Source: Pseudomonadota bacterium (GTDB taxonomy: Bacteria > Pseudomonadota > Alphaproteobacteria > JBCCHK01). From it: a stretch of DNA of 64,000 bases. The stretch's first letter is position 1; every line of letters starts with the position of its first letter. The position numbers were made by a program, and so were the translations under genes. The stretch is taken from assembly GCA_039028835.1 (NCBI GenBank), contig JBCCHK010000004.1, positions 104,370 through 168,369 of the forward strand, in the 5' to 3' direction. The notes beneath the pieces are model-generated. The model saw only the letters and a program-made list of their open reading frames with translations. It made no database searches and was not told where the DNA came from. Shown here piece by piece: positions 13,065 to 26,088 of the stretch.

Positions 13065-13794
13065 GCTCCACCTCAAAGACCTCTCCCCGCAACGGGATCC
13101 GTCCCTGCGCTTTGATCTGGTCGTTCCCTCGGGCGGCTTTATCGGTCTTTTTGGGGCGAGCGGGGCGGGCAAGACCACCTTGTTGCATTTGATCGCCGGA
13201 CTGGAGGAGCGGGGCACGGGCCAGGTCTTGATCGGTGGCGAGGATCAGACCGAGTGGCCCGCCCACCGCCGCGGGGTCACCCTGCTCTTTCAGGACCATA
13301 ATCTTTTCGAGCATATGACGGTGTTTGCCAACATCGCCCTGGGAATCACGACCGGTACGCCGACGCCCGCCGAGCATGTGGCCGTGACCCGCGCGATTGA
13401 CCAGGTGGGCCTTACAGGGCTGGAGGATCGCCTACCCCATCAGCTTTCTGGCGGACAACAGGGGCGGGTGGGCCTCGCCCGTTGCCTTATGCGCCGCCGG
13501 GGGGTGCTCTTGTTGGATGAACCCTTTGCGGCTCTCGATCCGCCCCTGCGCTATGACATGGCGCACCTGTTGGCTGCATTACGCCAAGAGCATCGCATGA
13601 CAGTGGTGGTGGTCAGTCACGACCTCGCGCCCCTGATGGCTCACGCCGACGGCGCGGCACCCCTACAGGACGGACGGCTCGGAGCGATTATGACTTGGGC
13701 ACAGATTGCCCAGGATCCGCGGCTGGCGTCTTATGGGGCAGGGCTGACCAGTCAGTCGGCGCACTTTTCGGCGGAATCACCCGCAATGCCGTGA
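13057..13794 (+). CDS. thiQ: Thiamine ABC transporter ATP-binding protein
   Basis: It has Walker A GASGAGKT, signature LSGGQQ and Walker B LLLDEP. Its start overlaps the thiP stop (ATGGCTGA). Confidence 0.85.
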   Translation: MAELHLKDLSPQRDPSLRFDLVVPSGGFIGLFGASGAGKTTLLHLIAGLEERGTGQVLIGGEDQTEWPAHRRGVTLLFQDHNLFEHMTVFANIALGITTGTPTPAEHVAVTRAIDQVGLTGLEDRLPHQLSGGQQGRVGLARCLMRRRGVLLLDEPFAALDPPLRYDMAHLLAALRQEHRMTVVVVSHDLAPLMAHADGAAPLQDGRLGAIMTWAQIAQDPRLASYGAGLTSQSAHFSAESPAMP

Positions 13795-15079
13795 TTTGAT
13801 TGCGCTGGCGGGTCAAAATCTCAAAACGAAAGTCATAAAAGGTAAAGGTCTGGCCTACGTTGGGCAGGGCGCGCGCCTCGTGCAACACTAGCCCGGCGAT
13901 GGTCGAGGCATGGTCGTCCGGTAGCCGCCAGCCGTACTTGCGGTTCAAATCGCGGATGGTGACCGCCCCGTCGATGAGGTAGCCGCCACCCGGTGCCGGG
14001 CGTACCCCGGCGACCGGCAGGTCATGCTCGTCACTGATATCGCCGACAATCTCCTCTAGGATGTCCTCTAAAGTTACGATGCCTTGAAAGGTGCCGTACT
14101 CATCCACCACCAGGGCAAAGTGGCCTTGACGGGCCCGAAAGGCCTGCAGTTGGCCGATCAGAGCGGTGGTTTCCGGCACGAACCAAGGCCGAGACAAAAG
14201 GGCCTCGATGCCAGCGGCGTCGATCTGCTGCGGGGCGGCGTGACTGCGCAGCAGGTCCTTGAGCAGCAGGATGCCGATGATGTTGTCCGGCTGATCTCGC
14301 CATACCGGCAGGCGCGAGTAAGGACTTTGTGAGGCCTTTTGCCAAATCTCCGCATCGTCGATATCCAATGTCTGAACATTGTTGCGATGGGTCATAATCT
14401 CCCCCACCTGGACGTCGCGCAGATCCAAGATCGAGTGCAGCATGGCCTGTTCCTCATGGACCCCTTGCAAGAGAAGGCTGATCGCACCGCGGAGCTCCTC
14501 GCCCGAGGCGCGCCGCGACGCCTGCCGGGGACGGTGGCCGAACATGCGCAGAAGGCCTGTGACCAGTCCGTTAATCAGGCTGATGGCCGGGGCGAAGAGG
14601 ATGAGTAAAAACCGCAACAGGGGCGCAAGGGTCAAGGCCATGCGCTCGGCGCGTCCCAGTGCGAGAGTCTTGGGCAGAATCTCGGCAAAGACCAAAATCA
14701 CCAGAGTCATGACCAAGGTCGCCGTGGCCACCGCACCGCTTCCCATGCGGCTCACCAGAAAACTGGTGAACAAGGCCGAGGCTAAGATGTTCACCAGGTT
14801 GTTACCGAGCAAAATCGTGGAGATCAGCCGCCCGCGCTGGTCCATCAGGCGGCGCATCAATCGCGCCCGGCGGGAGCCTTCCTGCGCCCACTGGTGAATG
14901 CGGTGAGGACTGGCGGCGGTAATCGCCGTCTCACTGCCAGAAAACAGCGCCGAACAGGCAATCAGCAACGCAATTGCGAGCAGGGTCCATAAATCCAAGT
15001 TGTCCCAGAACATCACACACCACGCAAAAGCGGACTCGAGCCAAGAAGCAAGCAGGGAGGCGATCGTGGCGTCGTCCAT
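13688..15079 (-). CDS. HlyC/CorC family transporter (DUF21-CBS-CorC_HlyC, TlyC-like)
   Basis: It has the N-terminal DUF21 TM region, a CBS pair and a CorC_HlyC C-terminal domain. Its start overlaps the aroB stop (ATGA). Confidence 0.8.
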   Translation of the reverse strand: MDDATIASLLASWLESAFAWCVMFWDNLDLWTLLAIALLIACSALFSGSETAITAASPHRIHQWAQEGSRRARLMRRLMDQRGRLISTILLGNNLVNILASALFTSFLVSRMGSGAVATATLVMTLVILVFAEILPKTLALGRAERMALTLAPLLRFLLILFAPAISLINGLVTGLLRMFGHRPRQASRRASGEELRGAISLLLQGVHEEQAMLHSILDLRDVQVGEIMTHRNNVQTLDIDDAEIWQKASQSPYSRLPVWRDQPDNIIGILLLKDLLRSHAAPQQIDAAGIEALLSRPWFVPETTALIGQLQAFRARQGHFALVVDEYGTFQGIVTLEDILEEIVGDISDEHDLPVAGVRPAPGGGYLIDGAVTIRDLNRKYGWRLPDDHASTIAGLVLHEARALPNVGQTFTFYDFRFEILTRQRNQITALRVIPPKSAPTDWSALPHKTPAADPGQSVPKS

Positions 15080-16194
15080 CAGCAGGACTCCGCCATGGCC
15101 GCCGCCACCGCTTGGCGCACGGCGCCCTCATGGACGTCTGTGACAACCTCAGCTTGGCCGAGTGCGCGCAAGAGCACAAAGGTCAGCCGCCCCTCTTCGG
15201 CTTTCTTATCGCGTCGCATGGTGGCGATAAAGTCTGGCCAGGGCGGCAGACTTGCGGGCCGGGTGGGCAATCCGGTTGCTTTGAGGTGATGGCGAATCCG
15301 CACCACGTCATCGCGTGCGATCATACCCAAATGGGCGGATAAGTGCGCGGCCATGACGATTCCCATGGCGACGGCCTCTCCATGAATGAGAGCCCGCCGG
15401 TATTGCTGCGCCTGTTCTAGGGCGTGGGCGAAGGTATGGCCCAAGTTCAAGAGTGCGCGCCGGTCGTTGTCCCGCTCGTCTTCGCTGGTGATGCGCGCCT
15501 TGTGGCGGCAACAGGTGGCAATGGCGTAAGCAAGGGCGGCGGGCTCACGGCGCAGGACGTCGGCGGCGTTTGTCTCCAGCCACGTCAAAAAGGCTGCATC
15601 GCCGAGCAGGGCATATTTGTAGATTTCCGCGTAGCCCGCGCGCATCTCACGCGCAGGCAGGCTGGCAAGCCATGCGGTATCGCAGATGACCCCTCGGGGC
15701 TGATAAAAGACACCGATCAGGTTCTTACCCAAGCGGCTGTTCACGCCGGTTTTCCCGCCGATGGCGCTGTCGACCTGCGCGAGCAGCGTGGTGGGGATGT
15801 GGATCAGGGGAAGGCCGCGCAAGGCAAGGGCGGCGGCGCATCCCGCCAGGTCGCCAATCACCCCGCCGCCAAAGGCGATAACGTGGGTACGGCGGTCGAT
15901 CCTGGCCGCCAGCATGTCCTCAACCAGCCGGATCAAGCGGGAGGGGGACTTGCTTTGCTCGCCGCTGGGGACGATGAGGGTGGCTTTGATTTTGGTGCCT
16001 AACAGGTGCGTGAGGGTCTGTCCATGCTGGCGCATGACCCGCGGCTCAGAGACCAGCAGGTGCTCTCCTGGCCTGATCATCTCGGCCGCGGTGGTTTTGC
16101 TGATGCCGTGCCCGACGCGGACCCGATAGCTTCGTGCACCCAGCTCGACGTCGATGTCGAGGGGGGCGTTCGCAGGCATAGAAGGAGAGGTCAT
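15079..16194 (-). CDS. aroB: 3-dehydroquinate synthase
   Basis: The motifs GGGVIGDLAG, IPTTLLAQVDSAIGGKTGVN and HGEAVAMG are present. I placed the start at MTSPSMP. Confidence 0.88.
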   Translation of the reverse strand: MTSPSMPANAPLDIDVELGARSYRVRVGHGISKTTAAEMIRPGEHLLVSEPRVMRQHGQTLTHLLGTKIKATLIVPSGEQSKSPSRLIRLVEDMLAARIDRRTHVIAFGGGVIGDLAGCAAALALRGLPLIHIPTTLLAQVDSAIGGKTGVNSRLGKNLIGVFYQPRGVICDTAWLASLPAREMRAGYAEIYKYALLGDAAFLTWLETNAADVLRREPAALAYAIATCCRHKARITSEDERDNDRRALLNLGHTFAHALEQAQQYRRALIHGEAVAMGIVMAAHLSAHLGMIARDDVVRIRHHLKATGLPTRPASLPPWPDFIATMRRDKKAEEGRLTFVLLRALGQAEVVTDVHEGAVRQAVAAAMAESC

Positions 16195-16208
16195 GAGTAC
16201 CGAGTTTC

Positions 16209-16224
16209 TGGCATAAAACTTGCA
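16209..16224 (+). promoter_or_regulatory. Sigma54 (-24/-12) promoter TGGCAT-N5-TTGCA, oriented toward the 1164-aa repeat protein
   Basis: The sequence tctggcataaaacttgcaaca has correct GG/GC spacing. It is nearly identical to the flgF promoter at 20112. Confidence 0.6.
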
Positions 16225-16604
16225 ACAAAACAGCCCAAAGACGCCAAGCACGATCACCATCGTGGATCTTTGGTCTATCATTTTCGATCATTTTATGATA
16301 GGATTGCGGCATAAAACATCCCTAACCCATCCTTAATATCCAAGGCTTGTGGGTTGTTCTGCAAAAACGTCAAAAAACCCGAAAATCGGGCTGAGCAAGA
16401 GCGGGACAAAACAGGACAAGACCAAGCCAAACGGGTTGACAACAGAGGGCCATAAAAAAGGAACATAAAGGCAGTGAAGGCCAAGAACGGTCAGCCACTC
16501 ATCCGCCTTTTCGCTTTTCCTCATGGGCTTTGTCCTTAGCTTAAGGACCGTTTGTTTAAGGATGATGAACGGATGTTGCGTGCCAAAGAAGTTGGACAAC
16601 GACA

Positions 16605-19600
16605 ATGACAACCATCGCTTCGGCCAGTCTGCCTGGAATCGCAGGCTGGAAACACTTCCTCAAGAATGAGGAAAAGCAGCTCGCAGAGTTCCGCAACGAT
16701 CCCACCGTCAAGCGGGACATAGACAAGTTCTTAAAAGAGCTTGAAGGTGTTAGCTCGTCCAAAGAACTGATCGATAATTTCTATACCCGCCGCTTTATTG
16801 GTGCCGCCTTTAGCCTGGGGCAGTACGAAGACGCCAACGGCCTACTTAAAAAAGTCCTGGAAGAAGGCACCACATCAGAGACCCTCGATGGCTTCGTTTA
16901 TGAAAATGGCGAGCGAAAGCCGCGTGTCAAACAAGCCCTCGCCGTGCAGATGAACGAACCAAGTCTGATTGCGATGACAACGATTTTGGACTTTACCGGC
17001 GGCTATAACCCTCTCAAAAACAAAAACACCGTCGATCATGTGATCGAGCGTTTCGTACGCCGCCGGTTTGAGGCGCAAATCCAAGCAAGCAACCCGGAGC
17101 TTGCCCAAGCCGTCATCTATAAGCGCATGGCCAGCGAGACGCAGTCAACAGCGCAGCTCGCGCAGCAACGCTTTGAAGAGTTTAAGACCCTCGCGGACAC
17201 CACCGAAAAGATCAAGGCATTCAAAGCCGAAATCGCAACCCTCAATGAAAGCAGTTCGGTCAGCCAAAAAGAGGTCCTTTACGACATTATGCAAGATCGT
17301 TCCAATTGGCTCATCATGATGCGCCGGTTTGGTGGCACGGCCACCAGGGAAAACCACGATACGTTCATGTTCAATTTCGATAAAGAATATCAATCTATCA
17401 CGACCAAAGGTGAAACCACCGATGGGACCAAACTCAGCGAGCAAGACCTCATCGATCACTTTTTTGCCAAAACGCAAAACGGGCGTGATAACAGTGCCCG
17501 CCTAAGTGTCGCGCTCAGCTACGGTGTGCCCAGCCAAAGAACAGACAGCGCAGATCAGGTGTATGAGCAGGTCAGTGAAAAGGTGCTCGCGAAAAAACAA
17601 GCGCAAAGTCTGATCGACAATGAGACCACCCGTACCTTTCTCACCAAAGCCTATAATCTGCAGACCTTCGCGAAAGATCCGGCCATCTTGCACGAGCTCA
17701 TGACCTCTGGGGTAAGACCGTCTTCTAGGAATCCCATGCCGCTGGCCTTGATGCTGGAGGATCCCCGCGCCGTGTCATTCGCCCAAACCTTGGACTTTTC
17801 CCAAGGTAGCAATCCTTTAGCAGAAAAAGATGCCATAGACCTCGTGGTCAACGCTTATACTGCGCAGACTTTTATAGACAAACAAGCGCCCACCCGGCAC
17901 GCACAAGCCCGGCAGGACAATAGCGAACTGCTTGAGGCCATGCGCACGAAACTGAGCGGCGTGCGCAACCTTGATGACCTGCTCGAGGATGATGAACTGC
18001 GTAGCTTTGTGGCCCGTGCCTTCGATCTAGATGATCTTGCCGGCAATAAGGACATTTTTGCCAAAGCGATGACGACGATTCGTCTTGATTTTGCCGGGCA
18101 CGAAGAGGGCAAGCCCGTCTTTACCGAAAAAGGGATCTTAGAGCAGCTCAAGCAGGCGTACATTGACCGCGAAACCAGCCAAACCCAGGCGCGTATCGAT
18201 GCTTTTAACCGCCAAGCCGATAGGATCCAAACGATCGATGGCCTCAGCGACGATCAGCGTACCTTCCTGGCCTATAGCCTAGGGTGGTCGGGCTTTGCGG
18301 CGAATGCTGATCTGGTGACCCGAGCTCTGGAGGCCCGGCAGACGTTCTTTGATCCCCAACAAACACTCCAAGACCAACTGGCCCATGTGATCGACGCCTA
18401 TAAAACCCAGCACAAGGTGGATGAGACCGACGCCCAAGTGATCGCGGCCCGGGCGGCAGCGGGGTCGGTTGCGGATCTCAGCGAAGCCCTCAATCATCAG
18501 GATATGGGCGCGATGATCGCCGAGGTTACGAACCTTATAGATCAAAAGGATGATCCGCGCCTCTTACAACAGATATTCACAGCACCCGTACCGCGCCTTG
18601 GTGCAGGGCAAACCATGGCGGCCTATGCGGAGGACCTGAGCAAGGGCTATCGCGCCGCGTTCACGCAAGCGCAGGTCACCGCGCGTGCCGAAACTCTGAT
18701 CGATAAAATAGAAAAGATCACCAGTACTCGTGCGCTCATCGATGATGATGCCATGCGTCATTTCACGGCCATTGCCACCGGCCACGAGAGTTTGAAAGAT
18801 TCGAAATATGCCCTGTCTCAGGCGCTCGAACGAAAATCGTTGCCAGATAGAAACATGATCTTTGTTAAATTGGTCAGCCGCCTGGATTTTGCCAATGGCA
18901 ACAATCCTTTTGCCGATCGGCGGTTGGTGGATCGTTTCGCCATCGAATACCGAGCCTTGCGTGAAGAAACGGCCAAAACGGTTAGGACGTTAACGCCAGA
19001 AAAAATCCAGGAAGAGATTTTAGCCTTTCGCCGTGCCGTGCCGACCATAAAAACGATGGAAGACTTTCTCGCTAACGACGACGCGCGGCGCGTCGTTACT
19101 GAAACCACGGGGGTGGGGAATTATCAAGATGATATCGGCACCCTGCGCTCAGTCTTACGCGGCGAGCGTGATTTTTCCGGGGGTATGAACACCTATGCCT
19201 TAAGCCAGGCTCTTGATTTTTCAGGGGGTAAGAATCCGCTCGCTCAAGCCAGTAAGGTCCAAGAGGTGCTCGATCGCTACGTCCATCGTCAATACGTTGC
19301 TGTCGGGCGGTCTTCTGAGTTGAGCGAATACAGCAAAATCATTGCCAAAAGAAGTGAGAGCGAAGTCAAGATCATCGCCGATTTCAGAGAGGCGGTGAAA
19401 ACCATCGAAAGCGTCGATCAACTGCTCTCTAACGGTCAAGTCCGCGAGTTCATCACCAAGGCCTTTGGTTTGTCTGAAAACTGGAGAGCCGATGACCAAC
19501 TTTTGCGCGGCCTTATGACGGGCGAGCAAGAGGGCCGTGATGTTCGCACCGCAGCCATGGGCAGCCAAGATATTCGCGTTCATGCTTTCCTCAACGCCAT

Positions 19601-20099
19601 AGACTTTAGCCAAGATAAGAACCCGCTCAAGGATGAGGCGACGGTCGATGGCATTGTTGATCGTTATATCGCCCGTGAGTTTGAGTTCGAGCTCTCGGTG
19701 GTGAATCCGGGGCTTGCGGATGCGTTGCGTTACAAACGTGTCACCGATGAGCACGGCACCCTGAGCGCACCGACGGATCGCATCACCAACTGGTACCAGG
19801 TCATGGCAGATCAACAACTGGATCGATTTGTGGCTACCACCTTAGGCTTTCCCCAAGAAGTCCTAAGCACCAAGATGGAAAAGCGTCTGTCGCTTTATGA
19901 AAGCCGGGTTAAAATTGACGAGCTGTTTAATCCCGACAATGTCGAGAAGTATGCCGAGCGGTACCTTGCGCAAGCCGCAGTCAGTGCCTCGCAAACCGGC
20001 TCAAGCCAGACGGATATTGCATTGCAACTCCTGCAAGGGACCGGTTTTTCCCAAGATTCTTTTGCCACATTAGCCAGTCAGTCTCCCATCGGCTCATAA
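16605..20099 (+). CDS. Giant (1164 aa) flagellum-associated repeat protein made of about six DUF1217-like units
   Basis: The motifs LDF(S/T/A)xG.NPL...VD...RY are internally repeated (TILDFTGGYNPL, TLDFSQGSNPL, RLDFAGHEEG, RLDFANGNNPF, ALDFSGGKNPL, AIDFSQDKNPL). Each is preceded by an R.F..A(F/Y).L motif. Confidence 0.7.
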   Translation: MTTIASASLPGIAGWKHFLKNEEKQLAEFRNDPTVKRDIDKFLKELEGVSSSKELIDNFYTRRFIGAAFSLGQYEDANGLLKKVLEEGTTSETLDGFVYENGERKPRVKQALAVQMNEPSLIAMTTILDFTGGYNPLKNKNTVDHVIERFVRRRFEAQIQASNPELAQAVIYKRMASETQSTAQLAQQRFEEFKTLADTTEKIKAFKAEIATLNESSSVSQKEVLYDIMQDRSNWLIMMRRFGGTATRENHDTFMFNFDKEYQSITTKGETTDGTKLSEQDLIDHFFAKTQNGRDNSARLSVALSYGVPSQRTDSADQVYEQVSEKVLAKKQAQSLIDNETTRTFLTKAYNLQTFAKDPAILHELMTSGVRPSSRNPMPLALMLEDPRAVSFAQTLDFSQGSNPLAEKDAIDLVVNAYTAQTFIDKQAPTRHAQARQDNSELLEAMRTKLSGVRNLDDLLEDDELRSFVARAFDLDDLAGNKDIFAKAMTTIRLDFAGHEEGKPVFTEKGILEQLKQAYIDRETSQTQARIDAFNRQADRIQTIDGLSDDQRTFLAYSLGWSGFAANADLVTRALEARQTFFDPQQTLQDQLAHVIDAYKTQHKVDETDAQVIAARAAAGSVADLSEALNHQDMGAMIAEVTNLIDQKDDPRLLQQIFTAPVPRLGAGQTMAAYAEDLSKGYRAAFTQAQVTARAETLIDKIEKITSTRALIDDDAMRHFTAIATGHESLKDSKYALSQALERKSLPDRNMIFVKLVSRLDFANGNNPFADRRLVDRFAIEYRALREETAKTVRTLTPEKIQEEILAFRRAVPTIKTMEDFLANDDARRVVTETTGVGNYQDDIGTLRSVLRGERDFSGGMNTYALSQALDFSGGKNPLAQASKVQEVLDRYVHRQYVAVGRSSELSEYSKIIAKRSESEVKIIADFREAVKTIESVDQLLSNGQVREFITKAFGLSENWRADDQLLRGLMTGEQEGRDVRTAAMGSQDIRVHAFLNAIDFSQDKNPLKDEATVDGIVDRYIAREFEFELSVVNPGLADALRYKRVTDEHGTLSAPTDRITNWYQVMADQQLDRFVATTLGFPQEVLSTKMEKRLSLYESRVKIDELFNPDNVEKYAERYLAQAAVSASQTGSSQTDIALQLLQGTGFSQDSFATLASQSPIGS

Positions 20100-20111
20100 C
20101 AGCCCCTCATC

Positions 20112-20126
20112 TGGCATAAATCTTGC
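20112..20126 (+). promoter_or_regulatory. Sigma54 promoter TGGCAT-N5-TTGCT for flgFGAH
   Basis: The sequence ctggcataaatcttgcttg lies 43 bp upstream of the flgF ATG. Confidence 0.65.
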
Positions 20127-20168
20127 TTGTACTTACGTGAGACGTGTTTCACACGGGAGTACAGGACA

Positions 20169-20909
20169 ATGGACAACACAAGCTATATTTCATTAGCCCG
20201 GGCCACATCGCTGCAACGGCGGCTGGATGTCATCGCCCATAATATCGCCAACATGAACACCACCGGCTACAAAAAGCGCAAGATGGTGTTCAGCGAGTTT
20301 CTGGTCCAAGCGCAACGCCCGTTCGTCGATCGCGACGTGCGGGAATATAAATCGGTCATCGACGAGCGCACCATCCGTGATGTCGAAGACGGCACCCATC
20401 TGGAGACAGGCAATCCTTTTGATCTCGCCCTGTCTGGCACGGGATTTTTCAAGGTCGCCTATAACAATGGCGTTGCCTATACCCGCGCCGGTAACTTCGC
20501 CCTTAATGCCAACAACGAATTGACCACCATTGGCGGTCGGCAAGTGCTCTCTGGGGGCGATCAACCGATCCTGATCCCCCAAGGGGCGCAAGATATCTCG
20601 ATCACCCAATCAGGCCAGCTGTTTGCCGATGGGCTTGCCGTCGGCCAGCTTGAGATCGTGCAGTTTGATGATCTGCAAGACATGGAAAGCATCGGCGATT
20701 CGCTGATGATTACAACCCAAGAAGAACAGCCTGCGCCAGACGCGGTCGTGCGCCAAGGCAAGCTCGAGCAATCCAACGTCAATCCTATTCTTGAGATGAC
20801 CCGGATGATCGATACCTTGCGGACATTTCAGGCCAATCAAAAGATGATCGAAGACCATCACAGCCGGCAACGCACGTCGATCCGCAGCATCGCCGATCCA
20901 AAACTCTAA
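20169..20909 (+). CDS. flgF: Flagellar basal-body rod protein FlgF
   Basis: It has the rod-protein N-terminal motif SLARATSLQRRLDVIAHNIANMNTTGYK and a C-terminal rod domain. Confidence 0.88.
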   Translation: MDNTSYISLARATSLQRRLDVIAHNIANMNTTGYKKRKMVFSEFLVQAQRPFVDRDVREYKSVIDERTIRDVEDGTHLETGNPFDLALSGTGFFKVAYNNGVAYTRAGNFALNANNELTTIGGRQVLSGGDQPILIPQGAQDISITQSGQLFADGLAVGQLEIVQFDDLQDMESIGDSLMITTQEEQPAPDAVVRQGKLEQSNVNPILEMTRMIDTLRTFQANQKMIEDHHSRQRTSIRSIADPKL

Positions 20910-20937
20910 GACAAAACATACCTAAAGGATTAAAACC

Positions 20938-21723
20938 ATGAGATCACTGAGTACAGGCGCGATGGGCATGCTCGCCCAGCAGCTCAATGTAGACGTGCTG
21001 TCAAACAACATCGCGAACTTGACCACCACCAGTTTCAAAAGAAGTCGCGCTGAGTTTCAAGATTTTCTATACCAATCCTACCGTCGCGTCGGGACCACCT
21101 CCTCTGATGCGGGCACCATTGTTCCCGTAGGGGTGCAGGTCGGCGGCGGTGTCCGCGCAGCGGGGACCTATCGAATCCACGAACAAGGGGCGGTTAAGGT
21201 GACTGAAAACCCCCTTGATCTGGCGATCAACGGACACGGGTTTTTCCAAGTGAACCTGCCCGACGGCACCCTTGGCTATACCCGCGCGGGCTCTTTTCAG
21301 ATTAGTCCTGAGGGCAACATCGTTACTGTGGACGGCTATACGATTGTCGGCCCTGATGCCTTGCCGGCAGGGGCCACCGGGATCACCGTGAATGAACAAG
21401 GTACCGTTCAAGCCACCATTCAAGGCCAGGATGCCGCTATTGAATTAGGACAGTTCGAGCTTGCCCGTTTTGTCAACGATGCGGGCCTTGAGGCGATTGG
21501 TAATAACAACTACATCGTCACCGCCGCCTCCGGCGATCCGGCGATTGGTGTGCCGGGTGCGGAAGGGTATGGCCGTATTCGGCAAGGCATGATCGAAAAC
21601 TCCAACGTCAATGTCGTTGAAGAAGTCACCCAACTGATTACCGCGCAGCGGGCTTACGAGATGAACTCTAAGGTCATCTCGACCTCAGATGAGATGCTGC
21701 GCTCGATTGTTCAACTACGATAA
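20938..21723 (+). CDS. flgG: Flagellar basal-body rod protein FlgG
   Basis: It begins MRSLSTGAMGMLAQQLNVDVLSNNIANLTTTSFK and ends ...LRSIVQLR. Confidence 0.92.
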   Translation: MRSLSTGAMGMLAQQLNVDVLSNNIANLTTTSFKRSRAEFQDFLYQSYRRVGTTSSDAGTIVPVGVQVGGGVRAAGTYRIHEQGAVKVTENPLDLAINGHGFFQVNLPDGTLGYTRAGSFQISPEGNIVTVDGYTIVGPDALPAGATGITVNEQGTVQATIQGQDAAIELGQFELARFVNDAGLEAIGNNNYIVTAASGDPAIGVPGAEGYGRIRQGMIENSNVNVVEEVTQLITAQRAYEMNSKVISTSDEMLRSIVQLR

Positions 21724-21735
21724 GGGGATAAGGCC

Positions 21736-22590
21736 ATGAAAAAGTTTCTCTGGATGTGGCTTGTGGGGGGACTCGGTGCGCTTTTGGTGGCCGGTGATCT
21801 GCTCGCCGCTACAGCAATCAAGGTGCCAGCTCGGATCGAGGTCAGTACCGCCCACGTCACACTGGGGGATATTTTCATCGGTGTCGATCAAAGGATTGCC
21901 GATAAAATCGTCGTGCAAGCCCCGCCCAAAGGCCATGAGGTCATCATCCCGATTACCTGGATTGTGCGGGTCGCCAGCACTTATGACATCAATTGGTCGC
22001 CCTCACCCAACCGTACAACCATGATTACCATCTATCACCTCACGCAAAACCAGCAACAGGTACGGCTGCGTGATGACCTGACGCGGATGATTAAAAGATC
22101 ACTCGCGCAAAACAATGATGACGAGCCTGTGCAAACGGTGCCGCGCGAAACCGGTGATGTCAGTGAGGAACACCGTCTGCAGATTCCTGTGCTGGTGCGT
22201 GCAACGCGCCCAGGTGAGATTATTACCCGCGATGATCTCCAGTGGCGCACCTTACCCAAGCACGTGCGTGCCCCGCGGTCTATTCAGTCCATGGATGAGA
22301 TCATCGGCAAGACGCCCGTACGCTGGCTTAGTGCCGGGCGGGCCTTGCAATCCCATCAATTCAAAAACCCGCCGGTCGTCGAGCGGGGCGAGGTGGTCAC
22401 GGTGATCATCAGGCACAAAAGTTTGCGTATTACCACCAGTGGACGCGCCCTTGAGAGCGGCGCGATTGGTGAGGTCATCGACGTCATCAACGCCAGCAGC
22501 AAGAAAACGATTCAGGCCGAGGTCATTGGCCGTGGTCAAGCGCAGGTTACCCTGCCCTCCAGTCTTCTTGCGCAAAACGATATTTATTAA
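21736..22590 (+). CDS. flgA: Flagellar P-ring assembly chaperone FlgA
   Basis: It has a signal peptide and a C-terminal SAF domain (GEVIDVINASSKKTIQAEVIGRG). Its position between flgG and flgH supports the call. Confidence 0.75.
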   Translation: MKKFLWMWLVGGLGALLVAGDLLAATAIKVPARIEVSTAHVTLGDIFIGVDQRIADKIVVQAPPKGHEVIIPITWIVRVASTYDINWSPSPNRTTMITIYHLTQNQQQVRLRDDLTRMIKRSLAQNNDDEPVQTVPRETGDVSEEHRLQIPVLVRATRPGEIITRDDLQWRTLPKHVRAPRSIQSMDEIIGKTPVRWLSAGRALQSHQFKNPPVVERGEVVTVIIRHKSLRITTSGRALESGAIGEVIDVINASSKKTIQAEVIGRGQAQVTLPSSLLAQNDIY

Positions 22591-22637
22591 ACCTTGGGGA
22601 TACCTTGATCGGTGCCCTCACACATCAGGAAGGTCGA

Positions 22638-23393
22638 ATGAGAAAATATATTATCTATAAGCTGTTTGTCGTCATGGCCCTGGTCCTATCGGGTTGCGGT
22701 ATGGGTGATCGGCTTGCAAGTGTGGGTAAAGCACCTGCGTTTACACCGGTTGCCAACCCCGTCCAGCAACCTGATTATCATCAGGTCAGTCTGCCCATGC
22801 CCCGTCCTCGGACGCAGATGAACGAAGCCAACTCGCTCTGGCAGTCCGGCTCGCGCGCTTTTTTCCGCGACCAACGGGCGCGGCAAGTGGGTGATATCCT
22901 CACTGTGCTGATCGATATCAACGATAATGCGAATCTGCAAAACAGCACGACGCGCAATCGTACGGCCAACAGTGATGCCTCCACCATTCCGTCTGAGTTG
23001 GGGCTGGATGCGCTTGGCCGGGCCGCGCGTAAGGTTCTCCCTGGCTCTGATTTAACGGCGATCCCAGAGATGAACTCAGGGCAAGCAACCGATGGGCGCG
23101 GTACCATTCAACGCAACGAGCGGGTCCGCTTGCAGGTCGCGGCGGTGGTCAGCGACGTGCTTCCTAATGGCAACTTTTTTATCCATGGCCGGCAAGAAGT
23201 GCGGGTGAACTTTGAGGTGCGAGATTTAGAAATCGCCGGGGTTATTCGCCCAGAAGACATCACCAACACCAACACGATTAACCTCACCCAAGTCGCTGAG
23301 GCGCGGGTGACCTATGGTGGCCGCGGGCTGATTAGCAACGCGCAACAGCCGCGGATCGGTCAACAGATTTACGATATTATCTATCCGTTCTAA
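22638..23393 (+). CDS. flgH: Flagellar L-ring lipoprotein FlgH
   Basis: It has a lipobox LSGC and FlgH-like sequence (SLWQSGSRAFFRDQRA ... GNFFIHGRQEVRVN). Confidence 0.88.
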   Translation: MRKYIIYKLFVVMALVLSGCGMGDRLASVGKAPAFTPVANPVQQPDYHQVSLPMPRPRTQMNEANSLWQSGSRAFFRDQRARQVGDILTVLIDINDNANLQNSTTRNRTANSDASTIPSELGLDALGRAARKVLPGSDLTAIPEMNSGQATDGRGTIQRNERVRLQVAAVVSDVLPNGNFFIHGRQEVRVNFEVRDLEIAGVIRPEDITNTNTINLTQVAEARVTYGGRGLISNAQQPRIGQQIYDIIYPF

Positions 23394-23429
23394 TCTGTCT
23401 TTTTCTACTTTTTCAAAACGCTGGTGAGT

Positions 23430-23468
23430 AAGGCCGCCGGTCAGCCGTGAGGGCTGATCGGCGGCCTT
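23430..23468. terminator. Bidirectional hairpin between the convergent genes flgH and pepN
   Basis: The sequence aaggccgccggtcagcc-gtga-gggctgatcggcggcctt is a nested inverted repeat. Confidence 0.6.
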
Positions 23469-23481
23469 CATGCATCCAGGC

Positions 23482-26088
23482 TTACGTATCCAGGCTTCGG
23501 CGCGCGAGCTCATAGATATACGGATCGGGTTTGGCCGCCAGCACCCGCTCAATTTCACGACGTAAGGCTTTTGAAAGGCGCTCGGTGAGAAGATTCCAGT
23601 TGCTCAGCTGGCGCATGATCCGTGCGGCGGCTTGTGGGTTAGTTTTCTGCCAATCAAGGATCATATTGGTGATAAAGCGGTAGCTAACGGGATGATGAAA
23701 GCTGCTGGGGTTGTTGGTGGCAAAACTTGCAAGCAGGGCATAAGCGCGGGAAGGCCGCTCTAAGGTGAAGGCCGGATGACGTGCCAGGCGGCGCACCGCT
23801 GTGCGGGTTTGCGCGCCACGCCGCGCGCAGGCTTGCACGGAAAACCAGGCATCGATCACCAGGTTATGATCCTGCCATTGATGATAGAAACTTTGCAAAA
23901 TGTCCTCTCGTTCGGGCCAGTCGTGATCCACCAACGCACGAAGGCCGGCGTATATTTCCGTCATAGACTCGCGCTTGCGATTATTTTCTATATGCTCGAT
24001 GACCAAAGTCCGCTTGGGTTCATCCTCCGGGTGACTGGCAAGATACATCAGGCACCGATTGCGCAAGGCGCGCCGCCCCATCGCGGCCGCGTCGGTGGCG
24101 CGGGGGTCTGTGGCCTCAAGGGCGTGATAGATCTTGCGCAAGAGAGGAGCAAAGGCGCAGGCAATTTGCCGCCGAGCGCCATGAGCGCGCCGGGCAATGG
24201 CAGCAGGATTGATCGGCGTCCAGTCGCGTGCTAAATCTTCCTCGCTTGGCAGGGCGATTAAATCGGCCAACAGGGCCGGATTCTCTTGCCAGCGCTCAAG
24301 GTTGGTGCCGAGGGCATCCAGCAGGCTTTGGCTTAGGGGCGCGTTCGCGTGGCGATGGCGACGCATCTGCTGGCGCATGAGCTGTTGGCCTGCATCCCAA
24401 CGACTCACCCCGTCGCTATCAAAACGATACAGCGCAAGAAGCTCAACTGGTTTTTGTCCGGTTAAGATCACTGGCGCGGAAAAGCCGCGCGCTAAGGAGG
24501 CGACCGGTTTGCTGGTGACGCCGGAGAAGGTGAGCCGATGATGCGCATCGTTAAGCACAGCCAGATGCTCCGTGGCGGTCGTTTTACCGTATTGAACGTT
24601 AAGAGGCGTTCCCTTGCGGGTAAACAGCACAACGACGAAGGGAATCGGTGCTTTATTGTGATCTTGGATGGTGACATCTAGCGTGTAGGTGCGTGCCAAA
24701 CGATCATAGGTTTGTTTTTCTATATGAATCGTCGGGGTGCCTTTTTGCGTATACCAGCGGGCAAAGTCTTTAAGATCAAGGCCGCTAGAATCGCTCATCG
24801 CGGATAGAAAATCCTCGCAAGTTACCGCTTGCAGATCATGTCGCATGAGATAGAAATAAACAGCCCTTGTAAAGGCCTCTGCGCCCATCATAGTGCGCAT
24901 CATGCGCAAAACCTCGGCGCCCTTATCGTAGACCGTGCGGGTATACAAATTGCCGACCGAAATATAGGAATCCGGGCGAATGGGGTGAGCAAGCGGTCCT
25001 GCATCCTCGGCAAACTGCCCCCCGCGCAGGGCGCGCACGCTATCGATGCGGGCAACCTCATAGCCGTCGATGTCCTCGCTATAGAGTTGGTCGCGTAACA
25101 CCGTCAGGCCTTCCTTGAGGGTGAGTTGAAACCAATCACGGCAGGTCACCCGATTGCCGGTCCAGTTATGAAAGTATTCGTGGGCGATAACGCTTTCGAC
25201 CCGGCGGTGGGTAGCATCGGTGCTGGTGGCGGTCTCGCAGAGCAATAACGACGTATTGAAAATGTTCAGGCCCTTATTTTCCATCGCTCCAGCATTAAAG
25301 TGATGGCTAGCGACGATGGTATAGGTGCTAAGATCGTACTCAAGGCCAAAGACGCGCTCGTCCCATGCCATAGATCGCTTCAAAGCAGCCAGGGCGAGAT
25401 GGCACTGATCGATATCGGCCTGGTCGGCATAGACGGCCAGCGCAATGCTCCGCCCCGACGGGGTCGTGTGAGTACTGGTCAGCCGTGCGAGTTTCCCCGC
25501 CACCATGGCAAACAGGTAAGACGGTTTAGGAAAGGGATCCTCAAAACGTGCCCAATGAGTCTCGCCGTCTTGTCCGCGTTCGATGCAATCACCGTTGCTG
25601 AGCAAGACCGGATAATCCGATAGGTTCGCGCGCAAGGTCACCCGGTAGCGGGCGAGCACATCGGGGCGATCACAAAAAAACGTGATGCAACGAAAGCCCT
25701 CGGGCTCGCATTGGGTACAGAGCAAAGTGCCCGATTCATACAAGCCCTCTAAGGTGGTATTCGCGCGCGGATTGATGAGCGTTTCGGTTGTCAGGGTAAA
25801 GCGCGCGGGGGCATGCGCGATGGTCAGTCCGCCATCTGGCGTGCGTGTCCATTCACGCTCGTCTAAGGTTTGGTTATCGATACGGATCGAGCGCACGATA
25901 AGACCCTGCGCGCCATCCAGGGTGATCTCGCCGGGCTGGCCTTGGTTGCAGGTGAGCGTTGCGCGGACAAGGGTTTTTTGGGGGTCTAGATCGACGTGCA
26001 GATCGACATCGTCGATGGTGAGTGATGGCGGCCTATAGTCTGCAAGGAGGATGGGTGACGGCGGTGAGGATTTTATATCGGTTTTCAC
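23482..26088 (-). CDS. pepN: Aminopeptidase N (M1 family)
   Basis: It has the GAMEN motif and the zinc-binding HEYFHNWTGNRVT...E motif. It is about 870 aa. Confidence 0.92.
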   Translation of the reverse strand: MKTDIKSSPPSPILLADYRPPSLTIDDVDLHVDLDPQKTLVRATLTCNQGQPGEITLDGAQGLIVRSIRIDNQTLDEREWTRTPDGGLTIAHAPARFTLTTETLINPRANTTLEGLYESGTLLCTQCEPEGFRCITFFCDRPDVLARYRVTLRANLSDYPVLLSNGDCIERGQDGETHWARFEDPFPKPSYLFAMVAGKLARLTSTHTTPSGRSIALAVYADQADIDQCHLALAALKRSMAWDERVFGLEYDLSTYTIVASHHFNAGAMENKGLNIFNTSLLLCETATSTDATHRRVESVIAHEYFHNWTGNRVTCRDWFQLTLKEGLTVLRDQLYSEDIDGYEVARIDSVRALRGGQFAEDAGPLAHPIRPDSYISVGNLYTRTVYDKGAEVLRMMRTMMGAEAFTRAVYFYLMRHDLQAVTCEDFLSAMSDSSGLDLKDFARWYTQKGTPTIHIEKQTYDRLARTYTLDVTIQDHNKAPIPFVVVLFTRKGTPLNVQYGKTTATEHLAVLNDAHHRLTFSGVTSKPVASLARGFSAPVILTGQKPVELLALYRFDSDGVSRWDAGQQLMRQQMRRHRHANAPLSQSLLDALGTNLERWQENPALLADLIALPSEEDLARDWTPINPAAIARRAHGARRQIACAFAPLLRKIYHALEATDPRATDAAAMGRRALRNRCLMYLASHPEDEPKRTLVIEHIENNRKRESMTEIYAGLRALVDHDWPEREDILQSFYHQWQDHNLVIDAWFSVQACARRGAQTRTAVRRLARHPAFTLERPSRAYALLASFATNNPSSFHHPVSYRFITNMILDWQKTNPQAAARIMRQLSNWNLLTERLSKALRREIERVLAAKPDPYIYELARRSLDT

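What the first reader, a model, noticed from the sequence alone, without database searches (positions are those of the whole stretch)
16605..20099. 1164-aa protein built from about six DUF1217-like repeats, co-regulated with flagellar rod genes
The protein has no catalytic motifs. It is made of a recurring bipartite unit: (D/N)xxxRxF(I/V)xxAFxL, then about 60 aa, then LDFSxGxNPLxxxxxVDxxxDRYxxxxF. The unit recurs at about aa 62/128, 340/397, 460/493, 722/763, 810/873 and 918/988. DUF1217 (PF06748) proteins are, as far as I recall, confined to alphaproteobacteria, loosely flagellum-linked and functionally uncharacterised. I recall known members being much shorter, with one to three repeats. A six-repeat 1164-aa version lies immediately upstream of flgF-flgG-flgA-flgH. 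It is preceded by a sigma54 promoter almost identical to the flgF promoter. This suggests an uncharacterised structural or scaffolding component of the flagellar basal body or hook, or a hook/rod-associated secreted substrate with no type III signal annotated.
Basis: partly seen in the sequence, partly recalled or inferred. Interest (0 to 1): 0.72.

Follow-up and report, generated by a model that had tools for sequence, protein, structure and literature searches.

The report
Expanded DUF1217 flagellar protein gene
This is a real 1164-residue, all-helical protein of the uncharacterised, flagellum-linked DUF1217 family of alphaproteobacteria, enlarged by copying one half of its domain six to eight times; it is an unusually long and divergent member of a known family, and the family's lack of cysteine hints that its members are exported like flagellar rod proteins.

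Summary
ORF 16605-20099 (+) encodes a 1164-aa protein that matches Pfam DUF1217 (126 bits).

What repeats is only the N-terminal half of the DUF1217 fold. One C-terminal half and a conserved tail follow, giving (N)6-8-C-tail. This (N)n-C layout is the family rule, with n from 1 to at least 10 and ORFs over 1400 aa in Rhizobium.

The flagellar link is strong:
- The gene sits directly upstream of flgF-flgG-flgA-flgH, in a five-gene islet among housekeeping genes.
- A DUF1217 gene directly precedes flgF in 59 of 88 complete genome loci sampled.
- Those flgF-linked genes are nearly all single-domain. The exception that matters is the closest homologue (28% identity), which has six N-halves in a motA/DUF1217/flgF/fliI locus.

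Both genes carry near-identical sigma54-type promoters.

The fold is an orphan: only PDB 2o8s matches. The family is almost cysteine-free, like rod proteins and unlike FliI or MotA. It also has an uncharged N-terminal peptide and no Sec signal. I therefore favour a non-enzymatic assembly factor exported by the flagellar type III system, but this is untested.

Verdict: a new member of a known kind, of moderate interest.

The parts
16208..16223 (+). Sigma54-type -24/-12 promoter motif CTGGCATAAAACTTGC. It lies 15 nt beyond the likely aroB start on the other strand and about 380 nt upstream of the DUF1217 ATG.
   Evidence: It matches the flgF promoter motif at 15 of 16 positions. Only these two exact matches occur in 64 kb. 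Function is not tested.
16224..16604 (+). Presumed long 5' leader of about 370 nt, purine-rich. It contains the inverted repeat 16308-16336 / 16556-16584 and a hairpin at 16532-16548.
   Evidence: No Rfam match. No + strand ORF longer than 48 aa. Its role is unknown.
16605..20099 (+). DUF1217-family gene encoding 1164 aa plus stop. The protein has no Cys, pI 5.2, no transmembrane segment or signal peptide, and is predicted all-alpha.
16605..17069 (+). N-half unit 1 (aa 1-155), including the uncharged N-terminal peptide MTTIASASLPGIAG.
17070..17564 (+). Helical spacer (aa 156-320) with no detectable family signal. It begins with a short remnant of a C-half (NPELAQAVIYKR).
17565..17873 (+). N-half unit 2 (aa 321-423)
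17886..18194 (+). N-half unit 3 (aa 428-530), shortened
18177..18581 (+). Two degenerate partial units (aa 525-590 and 610-659)
18642..18989 (+). N-half unit 4 (aa 680-795)
18972..19319 (+). N-half unit 5 (aa 790-905), with a local 15-codon duplication of the LDF motif at 19154-19234.
19326..19691 (+). N-half unit 6 (aa 908-1029). Together with the C-half it forms the one complete DUF1217 domain.
19692..19973 (+). The single C-half (aa 1030-1123)
   Evidence: 75 bits; Pfam positions 80-149
19983..20096 (+). Conserved C-terminal tail (aa 1127-1164; ...DIALQLLQG...), predicted with low confidence and probably flexible.
20111..20126 (+). Sigma54-type promoter motif CTGGCATAAATCTTGC for flgF. It starts 12 nt after the DUF1217 stop codon, and no terminator lies between them.
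20169..23393 (+). flgF (20169-20909), flgG (20938-21723), flgA (21736-22590) and flgH (22605-23393)
   Evidence: NCBIfam TIGR02490, TIGR02488, TIGR03170, NF001305

Best explanation
**Shown.** The ORF is an intact gene for a divergent, enlarged member of the DUF1217 family (PDB 2o8s / Atu0559 type).
- The architecture is six clear and two degenerate copies of the N-terminal half of the DUF1217 fold, then one C-terminal half, then a conserved flexible tail.
- The gene belongs to a five-gene flagellar islet with flgF-flgG-flgA-flgH.
- It has its own sigma54-type promoter, nearly identical to the flgF promoter.

**Inferred.**
- The gene is co-regulated with the rod and ring genes as a middle-class (Caulobacter class III-like) flagellar gene.
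- The protein is non-enzymatic. It has no Sec signal, and the family is cysteine-free with an uncharged Ser/Thr/Gly-rich N-terminus.
- From these features I infer that it leaves the cytoplasm through the flagellar type III export apparatus and acts in assembly of the axial structure.
- The conserved C-half plus tail would be the end that docks on a conserved flagellar partner. FlgF, the proximal rod protein, is the prime candidate because of the near-invariant gene adjacency.
- The N-half modules would form a helical extension or multivalent scaffold. Its length is set by module number and has grown here by intragenic duplication.

**Likelihoods.**
- Family identity and architecture: about 0.95.
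- Flagellar role: about 0.8.
- Export by the flagellar type III system: about 0.4.
- FlgF as the direct partner: about 0.25.
For: **Family and fold**
- Pfam DUF1217 at 126 bits.
- PDB 2o8s is the only sequence hit.

**Architecture**
- (N)n-C-tail is seen in the query and in 60 of the 151 best representatives with n of 2 or more.
- Repeat significance was tested.
- Units 1, 2, 5 and 6 are each other's best matches among 362 units from other proteins. No unit of P0003 is among the top five matches of any query unit. This indicates lineage-specific duplication.

**Flagellar link**
- The islet is flanked by aroB and pepN.
- In a sample of 120 genome loci, 59 of 88 complete DUF1217 genes are followed directly by flgF.
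- In all 66 flgF-linked loci measured, the DUF1217 stop and the flgF start are 10 nt or less apart.
- The closest homologue, P0003, lies in a motA/DUF1217/flgF/fliI locus.
- Other homologues lie in flagellin-flaF-flbT-orf-DUF1217 clusters.
- Atu0559 is co-transcribed with flgF (bioRxiv 10.1101/533729).
- SMc03023 is co-induced with flagellar genes (PMC2848241).
- Brucella has motA-DUF1217-flgF (PMC7410920).
- The query's C-half and first unit score about 10 bits higher against the flgF-linked class than against the stand-alone long class.

**Promoters:**

**Export inference**
- The protein has 0 Cys in 1164 aa. Window proteins average 0.88% Cys, so P is about 3e-5.
- 172 of 175 representatives and 114 of 118 genome-locus ORFs are Cys-free (0.013% Cys).
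- In the same loci, rod proteins have 0.055% Cys, cytoplasmic FliI 0.60% (1 of 56 Cys-free) and MotA 2.0%.
- Residues 2-13 are only 4% charged across 157 family members, against 25% further along the protein.
- There is no hydrophobic segment; the maximum 19-aa Kyte-Doolittle mean is 0.89.
Against: - No experiment shows secretion or any phenotype for a DUF1217 protein.
- The single-domain homologue crystallised as a soluble globular protein (2o8s).
- The N-terminal region from about residue 12 is conserved and predicted helical, so it is not obviously a disordered export signal.
- No Flg_bb_rod / Flg_bbr_C axial-protein motifs are present.
- Many long paralogues lie among non-flagellar genes, so the family's function need not be tied to the rod.
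- Lack of cysteine is correlative and could have another cause.
- The upstream sigma54 motif is about 380 nt from the start codon. Its use, and RpoN/FlbD dependence, are untested.
- No shared enhancer element was found beyond the promoter itself.
- The full-length model is poor (pLDDT 61, pTM 0.35), so nothing can be said about overall shape.
Confidence: 0.45

Rival explanations
1. The protein is a cytoplasmic regulator of flagellar gene expression, like the putative Caulobacter regulator FlaY/FlaEY. It would stay in the cell and modulate flagellin or late-gene expression, for example together with FlaF/FlbT or by sensing assembly state. The repeated N-halves would act as protein- or RNA-binding modules.
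For: - Two of the four closest homologues (P0005 and P0008) lie directly after flagellin-flaF-flbT and a small ORF, with 4-nt overlaps.
- Caulobacter flaY is described as a putative flagellar regulator (PMC3667746).
- FlaE/FlaY are reported to modulate flagellin expression (PMC8921679, citing Minnich 1988).
- From memory, and not tested here, FlaEY (954 aa) is a multi-repeat DUF1217 protein.
- The fold is a soluble helical domain.
Against: - No DNA- or RNA-binding domain was detected.
- Near-total absence of cysteine across the family matches exported rod proteins, not cytoplasmic FliI in the same loci.
- A "regulatory" phenotype in Caulobacter would also arise indirectly from an assembly checkpoint.
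- In this window the gene sits with rod and ring genes, not with flagellin genes.
Confidence: 0.27
2. The protein is exported or surface-associated and works outside the flagellum, for example as a type I secretion substrate or an envelope or adhesion scaffold. Its position next to flgF would be a co-expression convenience rather than a structural partnership.
For: - It is cysteine-free, acidic (pI 5.2) and modular, with a conserved C-terminal tail and no N-terminal Sec signal.
- Long paralogues have conserved non-flagellar synteny, Tex-UbiA-DUF6101-DUF1217-FAD oxidase-Sua5.
- Others sit next to encapsulin or HSP20 genes.
Against: - No RTX or other known type I secretion repeats were found, and no secretion genes lie nearby.
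- The linkage to flgF is tight and recurs across differently arranged clusters.
- Linkage to flagellin/flaF/flbT also recurs.
- The gene has a flagellar-type sigma54 promoter.
Confidence: 0.12
3. The gene is a decaying, functionally dispensable expansion. Only the terminal N+C domain would work, as in the 260-aa orthologues. The extra units and spacers would be neutral baggage, or the long ORF a fused relic.
For: - Units 3 and 4, the two partial units and the spacers (aa 156-320 and 490-680) are strongly degenerate and poorly modelled.
- No close relative exists to show purifying selection. The best non-self match is 28% identical among 1.84 billion representatives.
Against: - A 3.5-kb frame remains open, and the protein is helical and cysteine-free throughout.
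- Unit 1 keeps the family's canonical N-terminus.
- Multi-N architectures recur independently in many lineages. This argues that module number is selected.
Confidence: 0.08

Closest known systems
AGR_C_984p / Atu0559 of Agrobacterium (PDB 2o8s) and its flgF-linked orthologues SMc03023 (Sinorhizobium meliloti) and BMEII1108 / BOV_A0118 (Brucella)
   Same: - Same Pfam family.
- The gene lies directly upstream of flgF on the same strand.
- Function is unknown, but the gene is co-expressed with flagellar genes (10.1101/533729, PMC2848241, PMC7410920).
- Cysteine-free with an uncharged N-terminus.
   Different: - Those proteins have one N-half and one C-half (about 260-330 aa). They sit between motA and flgF-fliI, with a gap of 10 nt or less to flgF.
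- Here the protein has 6-8 N-halves and 1164 aa. The neighbours are aroB upstream and flgG-flgA-flgH downstream.
- A 69-nt gap to flgF holds a separate promoter.
- Identity is only about 20-28%.
P0003, an 812-aa metagenomic DUF1217 protein (Logan SRR31326941; locus L123)
   Same: - Best non-self hit: E=7e-23, 28% identity.
- It has six N-halves and one C-half.
- It lies directly upstream of flgF.
   Different: - Its locus is the Hyphomicrobiales type, motA / DUF1217 / flgF / fliI, with an 8-bp gap.
- Its units are not the closest relatives of the query's units, so the expansions look independent.
- It is compact, with no long spacers.
Stand-alone long DUF1217 proteins, e.g. Allorhizobium undicola P0002 (728 aa), Rhizobium sp. 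Root1220 (ORF 1108 aa), P0152 (1129 aa) and the Rhodospirillales MAG protein P0154/P0155 (993 aa)
   Same: - Same (N)5-10-C-tail architecture and comparable length.
- Cysteine-free.
   Different: - They are not next to flagellar genes.
- The query's C-half and first unit score about 10 bits lower against this class than against the flgF-linked class.
Caulobacter crescentus FlaEY (flaE/flaY, 'regulatory protein')
   Same: - It is a long flagellum-related protein of unknown mechanism (PMC3667746, PMC8921679).
- From memory only, it carries DUF1217 repeats and lies in the flagellin/flaF/flbT region.
- Multi-N DUF1217 genes in that type of context were seen here (L129, L130).
   Different: - Membership could not be tested, because no FlaEY sequence was available to the tools.
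- The window gene lies with rod and ring genes, not flagellin genes.
Type III secretion molecular rulers (FliK, YscP)
   Same: This is a working analogy only. Both have a variable-length repeat-bearing region followed by one conserved C-terminal domain, no Sec signal and no Cys, and both are encoded in flagellar or injectisome clusters.
   Different: - No FliK/T3S4 (Flg_hook) domain or any sequence similarity was found.
- The N-half units are folded helical modules, not extended linkers.
- From my own knowledge, alphaproteobacteria already encode FliK.

Membership tests
Pfam PF06748 (DUF1217) | Match to the family HMM above the gathering score | tested here: met
   126.5 bits against a cut-off of 22.9, E=1.2e-36, 4 stretches. 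The best stretch is aa 953-1113, covering model positions 1-149.
Pfam PF06748 (DUF1217) | All-alpha fold of the solved member (PDB 2o8s) | tested here: met
Pfam PF06748 (DUF1217) | Family architecture: one or more N-halves, one terminal C-half, then a conserved tail | tested here: met
   Query: N-halves at aa 1-155, 321-423, 436-490, 672-745, 782-897 and 917-1026; C-half at 1030-1123; tail at 1127-1159. 142 of the 151 best representatives are (N)n-C.
Pfam PF06748 (DUF1217) | Family-wide composition signature found here: no cysteine and an uncharged N-terminal dodecapeptide | tested here: met
   0 Cys in 1164 aa, and MTTIASASLPGIAG has no charged residue. In the family, 172/175 and 114/118 proteins are Cys-free, and residues 2-13 are 4% charged.
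flgF-linked DUF1217 orthologue group (Atu0559 / SMc03023 / BMEII1108) | Gene immediately upstream of flgF on the same strand | tested here: met
   Stop at 20099 and flgF ATG at 20169. The gap is 69 nt and holds its own promoter, against 10 nt or less in 66/66 genome loci.
flgF-linked DUF1217 orthologue group (Atu0559 / SMc03023 / BMEII1108) | Single or double N-half, about 260-440 aa | tested here: not met
   Of 59 complete flgF-linked loci, 46 have one N-half, 11 have two and 2 have four; none has five or more. The query has 6-8 N-halves and 1164 aa.
flgF-linked DUF1217 orthologue group (Atu0559 / SMc03023 / BMEII1108) | Flanked by motA (divergent) and flgF-fliI | tested here: not met
   Upstream is aroB. 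Downstream of flgF are flgG-flgA-flgH, then pepN.
flgF-linked DUF1217 orthologue group (Atu0559 / SMc03023 / BMEII1108) | Sequence closer to this class than to the stand-alone long class | tested here: inconclusive
   C-half plus tail: 54.8 against 44.5 bits. First unit: 35.1 against 23.7 bits. True class members differ by about 30 bits.
Caulobacter FlaEY-type flagellar 'regulatory' proteins | Sequence homology to FlaEY | not testable with these tools
   No FlaEY sequence could be retrieved. The afdb50 library was unavailable. The link rests on memory.
Caulobacter FlaEY-type flagellar 'regulatory' proteins | Location in a flagellin / flaF / flbT cluster | tested here: not met
   There are no flagellin, flaF or flbT genes in the 64-kb window. 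Homologues P0005 and P0008 do have that context.
Flagellar axial proteins (rod/hook/junction family) exported by the flagellar type III system | Conserved Flg_bb_rod N-terminal and Flg_bbr_C C-terminal motifs | tested here: not met
   Pfam finds only DUF1217.
Flagellar axial proteins (rod/hook/junction family) exported by the flagellar type III system | Export through the flagellar type III apparatus | not testable with these tools
   Only indirect indicators are available: no Cys, no Sec signal and an uncharged N-terminus.
Sigma54-dependent (Caulobacter class III-like) flagellar promoters | -24 GG and -12 GC elements with canonical spacing (TGGCAC-N5-TTGCW) | tested here: met
   TGGCAT-AAAAC-TTGCA at 16209-16224 and TGGCAT-AAATC-TTGCT at 20112-20127.
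Sigma54-dependent (Caulobacter class III-like) flagellar promoters | Upstream activator (FlbD-type) binding sites | tested here: inconclusive
   No motif beyond the promoter is shared between the two regions, apart from one weak 14-mer with 2 mismatches. No rpoN or flbD gene lies in the window.
Sigma54-dependent (Caulobacter class III-like) flagellar promoters | RpoN-dependent transcription start | not testable with these tools
   This needs RNA-seq or 5'-RACE in wild type and an rpoN mutant.
Type III secretion rulers (FliK / YscP) | C-terminal T3S4 / Flg_hook domain | tested here: not met
   No Pfam match, even at E up to 5, on the C-terminal fragment.

The most novel reading that the evidence does not exclude
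DUF1217 proteins are an unrecognised class of substrates of the alphaproteobacterial flagellar type III export system. They would be cysteine-free, helical, modular proteins that dock on the proximal rod (FlgF) through the C-half and tail. The number of N-half modules, expanded independently in several lineages and to 6-8 here, would set a physical dimension or valency of a periplasmic or extracellular flagellar accessory structure, in the manner of a ruler or spacer.
Probability: 0.2. Interest if true: 0.75.

Novelty: new member of a known kind. Interest (0 to 1): 0.42.

Why it matters
DUF1217 is one of the few widely conserved genes inside alphaproteobacterial flagellar clusters that still has no function. 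This is so even though a crystal structure (PDB 2o8s) was released in 2007 and the gene is the first in the flgF operon of Agrobacterium, Sinorhizobium and Brucella.

This locus adds no new family, but working through it brought out family-wide features that make the question testable:
- The domain splits into an N-half that multiplies (1 to at least 10 copies) and a single C-half with a tail.
- The gene is almost always glued to flgF, or sits next to flaF/flbT.
- The proteins avoid cysteine as strictly as rod proteins do, while FliI and MotA in the same loci do not.

If the family proves to be an exported flagellar component or ruler-like scaffold, that would add a part to the alphaproteobacterial flagellum. 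It might also re-interpret the old Caulobacter "regulatory" genes flaE and flaY.

Tried and rejected
**Searches that failed or were unavailable**
- The search for homologous proteins: the word index returned only 2-10 hits, even with alignments.
I replaced it with a hand-made degenerate DNA pattern for R-x-A-L-x-F-x-R...D-x-x-L-x-x-V...L-P. That pattern recalls only about 13% of family members. The loci returned were mostly Hyphomicrobiales, so the repeat-number statistics are not a fair sample of all alphaproteobacteria.
- Self-BLAST for repeats: returned nothing useful. I replaced it with motif and HMM analysis.
- Foldseek against AFDB, to test FlaEY and see annotations: library unavailable.

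**Searches that returned nothing informative**
- Rfam on the leader and gene: only a sub-threshold hit inside the coding region.
- CtrA-box search: no more matches than chance.
- Search for a shared enhancer near the two promoters: nothing convincing.
- Pfam on the spacers aa 156-320 and 490-680: no extra domain.
- Literature for a functional study of DUF1217, Atu0559, SMc03023, BMEII1108 or FlaEY: only mentions as an unknown or putative regulator.

**Low-confidence result**
- Full-length AlphaFold model: pLDDT 61, pTM 0.35. I drew no conclusion on overall shape.

**Ideas considered and rejected**
- Spurious or fused ORF: rejected because the canonical family N-terminus, C-half and tail sit at the two ends of one open frame.
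- Axial rod/hook-family protein: rejected because the Flg_bb_rod motifs are absent.
- Enzyme: rejected because no catalytic domain was found.

Full report
**1. The observation**

The ORF at 16605-20099 (+) is real: ATG start, 1164 codons plus stop. 16605 is the first possible in-frame start. Homologues align from their own residues 2-11 to query residues 2-14, so the N-terminus is correctly placed.

Pfam assigns the protein to PF06748 (DUF1217) with E=1.2e-36, 126.5 bits against a gathering score of 22.9, in four stretches. Nothing else is credible. NCBIfam has no model for it.

- The LDF-x-G-x-NP motif lies at aa 128, 396, 494, 760, 870 and 999.
- The R-x-F-(I/V)-x-x-A-(F/Y)-x-L motif has its R-x-F core at aa 62, 343, 466, 718, about 830 and 947.

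In a leave-one-out test, each unit scored 30-71 bits against an HMM of the other five. The best of 200 shuffles reached 4-12 bits. Units are 18-32% identical to each other. Two more degenerate partial units lie at aa 525-590 and 610-659. A trace of the repeat is still visible in the DNA at the LDF motif.

**2. Anatomy**

I split the family alignment (87 sequences, A1) into an N-half and a C-half.
- The C-half covers 87 columns: ALYF-x-R ... LGLP ... D-x-D-x-Q ... DP ... RF.

Only the N-half is repeated in the window protein.
- N-halves lie at aa 1-155, 321-423, 436-490, 672-745, 782-897 and 917-1026.
- One C-half follows at aa 1030-1123.
- A tail at aa 1127-1159 matches the family's tail.

So the protein is (N)6-8-C-tail, not six complete DUF1217 domains.

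The segments at aa 156-320 and 490-680 carry no other Pfam domain. They are predicted helical but with low confidence.

**3. Surroundings**

Downstream lie flgF (true ATG at 20169), flgG, flgA and flgH. Upstream, on the other strand, is aroB, and beyond flgH is pepN. The rest of the window is housekeeping: thiamine transporter, ClpB, ATP synthase, cytochrome oxidase, PheT, RpoB and others. The five flagellar genes therefore form a small islet.

From my own knowledge, flgF-flgG-flgA-flgH is the order of the sigma54-dependent class III flgF operon of Caulobacter (Dingwall et al. 1992). I did not check this here.

Two sigma54-type motifs, CTGGCATAAAACTTGC (16208-16223) and CTGGCATAAATCTTGC (20111-20126), are the only such pair in 64 kb.
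- The second starts 12 nt after the DUF1217 stop codon and about 30 nt before the flgF Shine-Dalgarno and ATG. No terminator lies between.
- The first sits 15 nt beyond the probable aroB start. The NCBIfam aroB match begins at residue 52 of the 400-aa ORF, and Met30 gives a start at 16194.
- The first is also about 380 nt upstream of the DUF1217 ATG. This implies a leader of about 370 nt that has no Rfam match, modest predicted structure (z=-1.8) and an inverted repeat that could mask the region just before the start codon.

Promoter use is inferred from sequence only.

**4. Relatives**

An exhaustive phmmer search of 1.84 billion representatives found 412 proteins at E up to 1e-3. The best non-self hit is only 28% identical (P0003, E=7e-23). 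The exact protein is already in NCBI as [quoted passage not shown].

Among the 151 best representatives, the architectures are NC 91, N2C 11, N3C 15, N4C 10, N5C 9, N6C 4 and N7C 2. Long relatives include a 1129-aa protein, a 993-aa Rhodospirillales MAG protein, and 830-aa proteins of Jiella and Rhizobium tubonense.

The tool-made patterns failed, so I scanned the genome collection with my own degenerate pattern for the C-half. This returned 120 loci, mostly Hyphomicrobiales. They fall into two groups.
- **flgF follows directly (59 complete genes).** N-half counts are one in 46, two in 11 and four in 2. None has five or more.
- **No flgF neighbour (29 complete genes).** Ten have one N-half and 19 have four to seven. 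ORFs reach 1108, 1137 and at least 1413 aa in Rhizobium.

In all 66 flgF-linked loci measured, the DUF1217 stop and the flgF start are 10 nt or less apart.

Gene-context look-ups added further cases.
- The closest homologue, P0003 (six N-halves), lies between a divergent motA and flgF-fliI.
- P0005 and P0008 follow flagellin-flaF-flbT and a small ORF.
- P0002, P0152, P0154, P0030 and P0023 have no flagellar neighbours. P0004 starts near the end of its contig and has no flagellar gene downstream.

The window gene is thus a rare combination of long and flgF-linked, but it has a precedent.
- Its C-half and first unit score about 10 bits better against the flgF-linked class than against the stand-alone class. 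This preference is weak.
- Its units 1, 2, 5 and 6 are each other's best matches among 362 units from other proteins.
- No P0003 unit ranks in the top five for any query unit.

The expansion therefore happened within this lineage, independently of other long members.

**5. Literature**

No functional study was found.
- Brucella has motA-DUF1217-flgF-fliI, with function and location listed as unknown (PMC7410920).
- Atu0559 is part of the flg-fli polycistron together with flgF (bioRxiv 10.1101/533729).
- SMc03023 is induced with flagellar genes and is "of yet unknown function" (PMC2848241).
- Caulobacter flaY is "a putative flagellar regulator" (PMC3667746).
- FlaE/FlaY are said to modulate flagellin expression (PMC8921679).

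That FlaEY is a DUF1217 protein is my recollection only and could not be tested.

**6. A clue to mechanism**

The protein has no cysteine in 1164 residues. Other proteins in the window contain 0.88% Cys, which gives P of about 3e-5 for zero.

The same holds for the whole family and for the controls in the same genome loci:

| Protein set | Cys content | Cys-free |
|---|---|---|
| DUF1217 representatives | 0.008% | 172 of 175 |
| DUF1217 ORFs in genome loci | 0.013% of 53,459 residues | 114 of 118 |
| Rod proteins | 0.055% | 97 of 105 |
| Cytoplasmic FliI | 0.60% | 1 of 56 |
| MotA | 2.0% | 1 of 53 |
| Other ORFs of 300 aa or more | 1.2% | 109 of 878 |

Further features point the same way.
- Residues 2-13 are only 4% charged across 157 members and are rich in Gly, Ser, Leu, Thr, Ala and Ile. 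Residues 14-25 are 25% charged.
- The query begins MTTIASASLPGIAG.
- There is no hydrophobic segment or Sec signal, and the pI is 5.2.

From my own knowledge, flagellin and the other axial proteins exported by the flagellar type III system characteristically lack cysteine and carry uncharged N-terminal signals.

Taken together with the operon position, I think the most likely reading is a non-enzymatic protein that leaves the cell through the flagellar export apparatus and acts in axial assembly. The conserved C-half and tail would be the docking end, with FlgF the obvious candidate partner. The N-half modules would form a variable-length helical extension. I put export at about 0.4 and the FlgF partnership at about 0.25.

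The main rival is a cytoplasmic regulator working with FlaF/FlbT (0.27). Other rivals:
- Export for a non-flagellar role (0.12).
- A largely vestigial expansion (0.08).

**7. Verdict**

The item is a divergent, enlarged member of a known but uncharacterised family, not a new kind of element.

Its value lies in pointing at a neglected flagellar gene family and in the testable family-wide features found on the way. Interest is 0.42.

Noticed in passing
window 16224-16604: There is a leader of about 370 nt, purine-rich, between the sigma54-type motif and the DUF1217 start codon. It holds an inverted repeat (16308-16336 / 16556-16584; 29 nt, 72% complementary) that could pair with the region just upstream of the start codon. 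It also holds a hairpin with a T-run at 16532-16548 and a degenerate third copy of the promoter motif at 16305-16321. There is no Rfam match. The public contig L001 calls a 63-aa ORF on the minus strand (16293-16484), which is probably spurious.
   Followed up: partly
window 15079-16281 (-): The aroB ORF as listed (400 aa) probably starts at Met30 (16194). The NCBIfam aroB match begins at residue 52, and the first 29 residues look like read-through of the intergenic region. This places the sigma54 motif outside aroB.
   Followed up: partly
window 19154-19234: There is a local 15-codon tandem duplication inside repeat unit 5. It gives two adjacent copies of the LDF-type motif (RDFSGGMN and LDFSGGKN), with 75% DNA identity.
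   Followed up: no
window 35104-36807 (+): A 567-aa protein has four DUF805 stretches (Pfam E=4.5e-61). This is another multi-repeat protein of unknown function in the same window.
   Followed up: no
L129 2808-7581 and L130 3858-7860: There is a third conserved context for DUF1217 genes: flagellin, flaF, flbT, a 110-137-aa ORF with no Pfam match, then a three- or four-N-half DUF1217 gene whose start overlaps the small ORF by 4 nt. This resembles the Caulobacter flaF-flbT region.
   Followed up: partly
L002 and L126: Stand-alone long DUF1217 genes (728 and 1129 aa) share the synteny Tex - UbiA - DUF6101 - DUF1217 - FAD-linked oxidase - Sua5. This points to a stable non-flagellar locus for one paralogue class.
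   Followed up: no
L061 1347-8000 (Rhizobium sp. RAF56): Two long DUF1217 ORFs lie in tandem. One is at least 1413 aa with 10 N-halves and runs off the stored chunk. The other is 766 aa with 5 N-halves. These are the largest repeat counts seen.
   Followed up: no
proteins P0043, P0117, P0125 (811-829 aa) and P0097 (854 aa): In P0043, P0117 and P0125, one N+C DUF1217 domain sits at the N-terminus and is followed by about 600 residues with no DUF1217 signal. P0097 has an N-half at its N-terminus and a C-half near its C-terminus with no signal between, and JGI names it FlgG. These are possible fusions with another domain.
   Followed up: no
window 16001-24000: The flagellar islet has a lower G+C content (0.52-0.56) than the genes just upstream (0.62-0.64 at 12001-16000). 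Other parts of the window are equally low, so this is not clear evidence of transfer.
   Followed up: no
genome loci L003-L122: In all 66 flgF-linked loci measured, the DUF1217 stop codon and the flgF start codon are 10 nt or less apart. This suggests translational coupling. The window differs, with a 69-nt gap that carries a separate promoter.
   Followed up: yes
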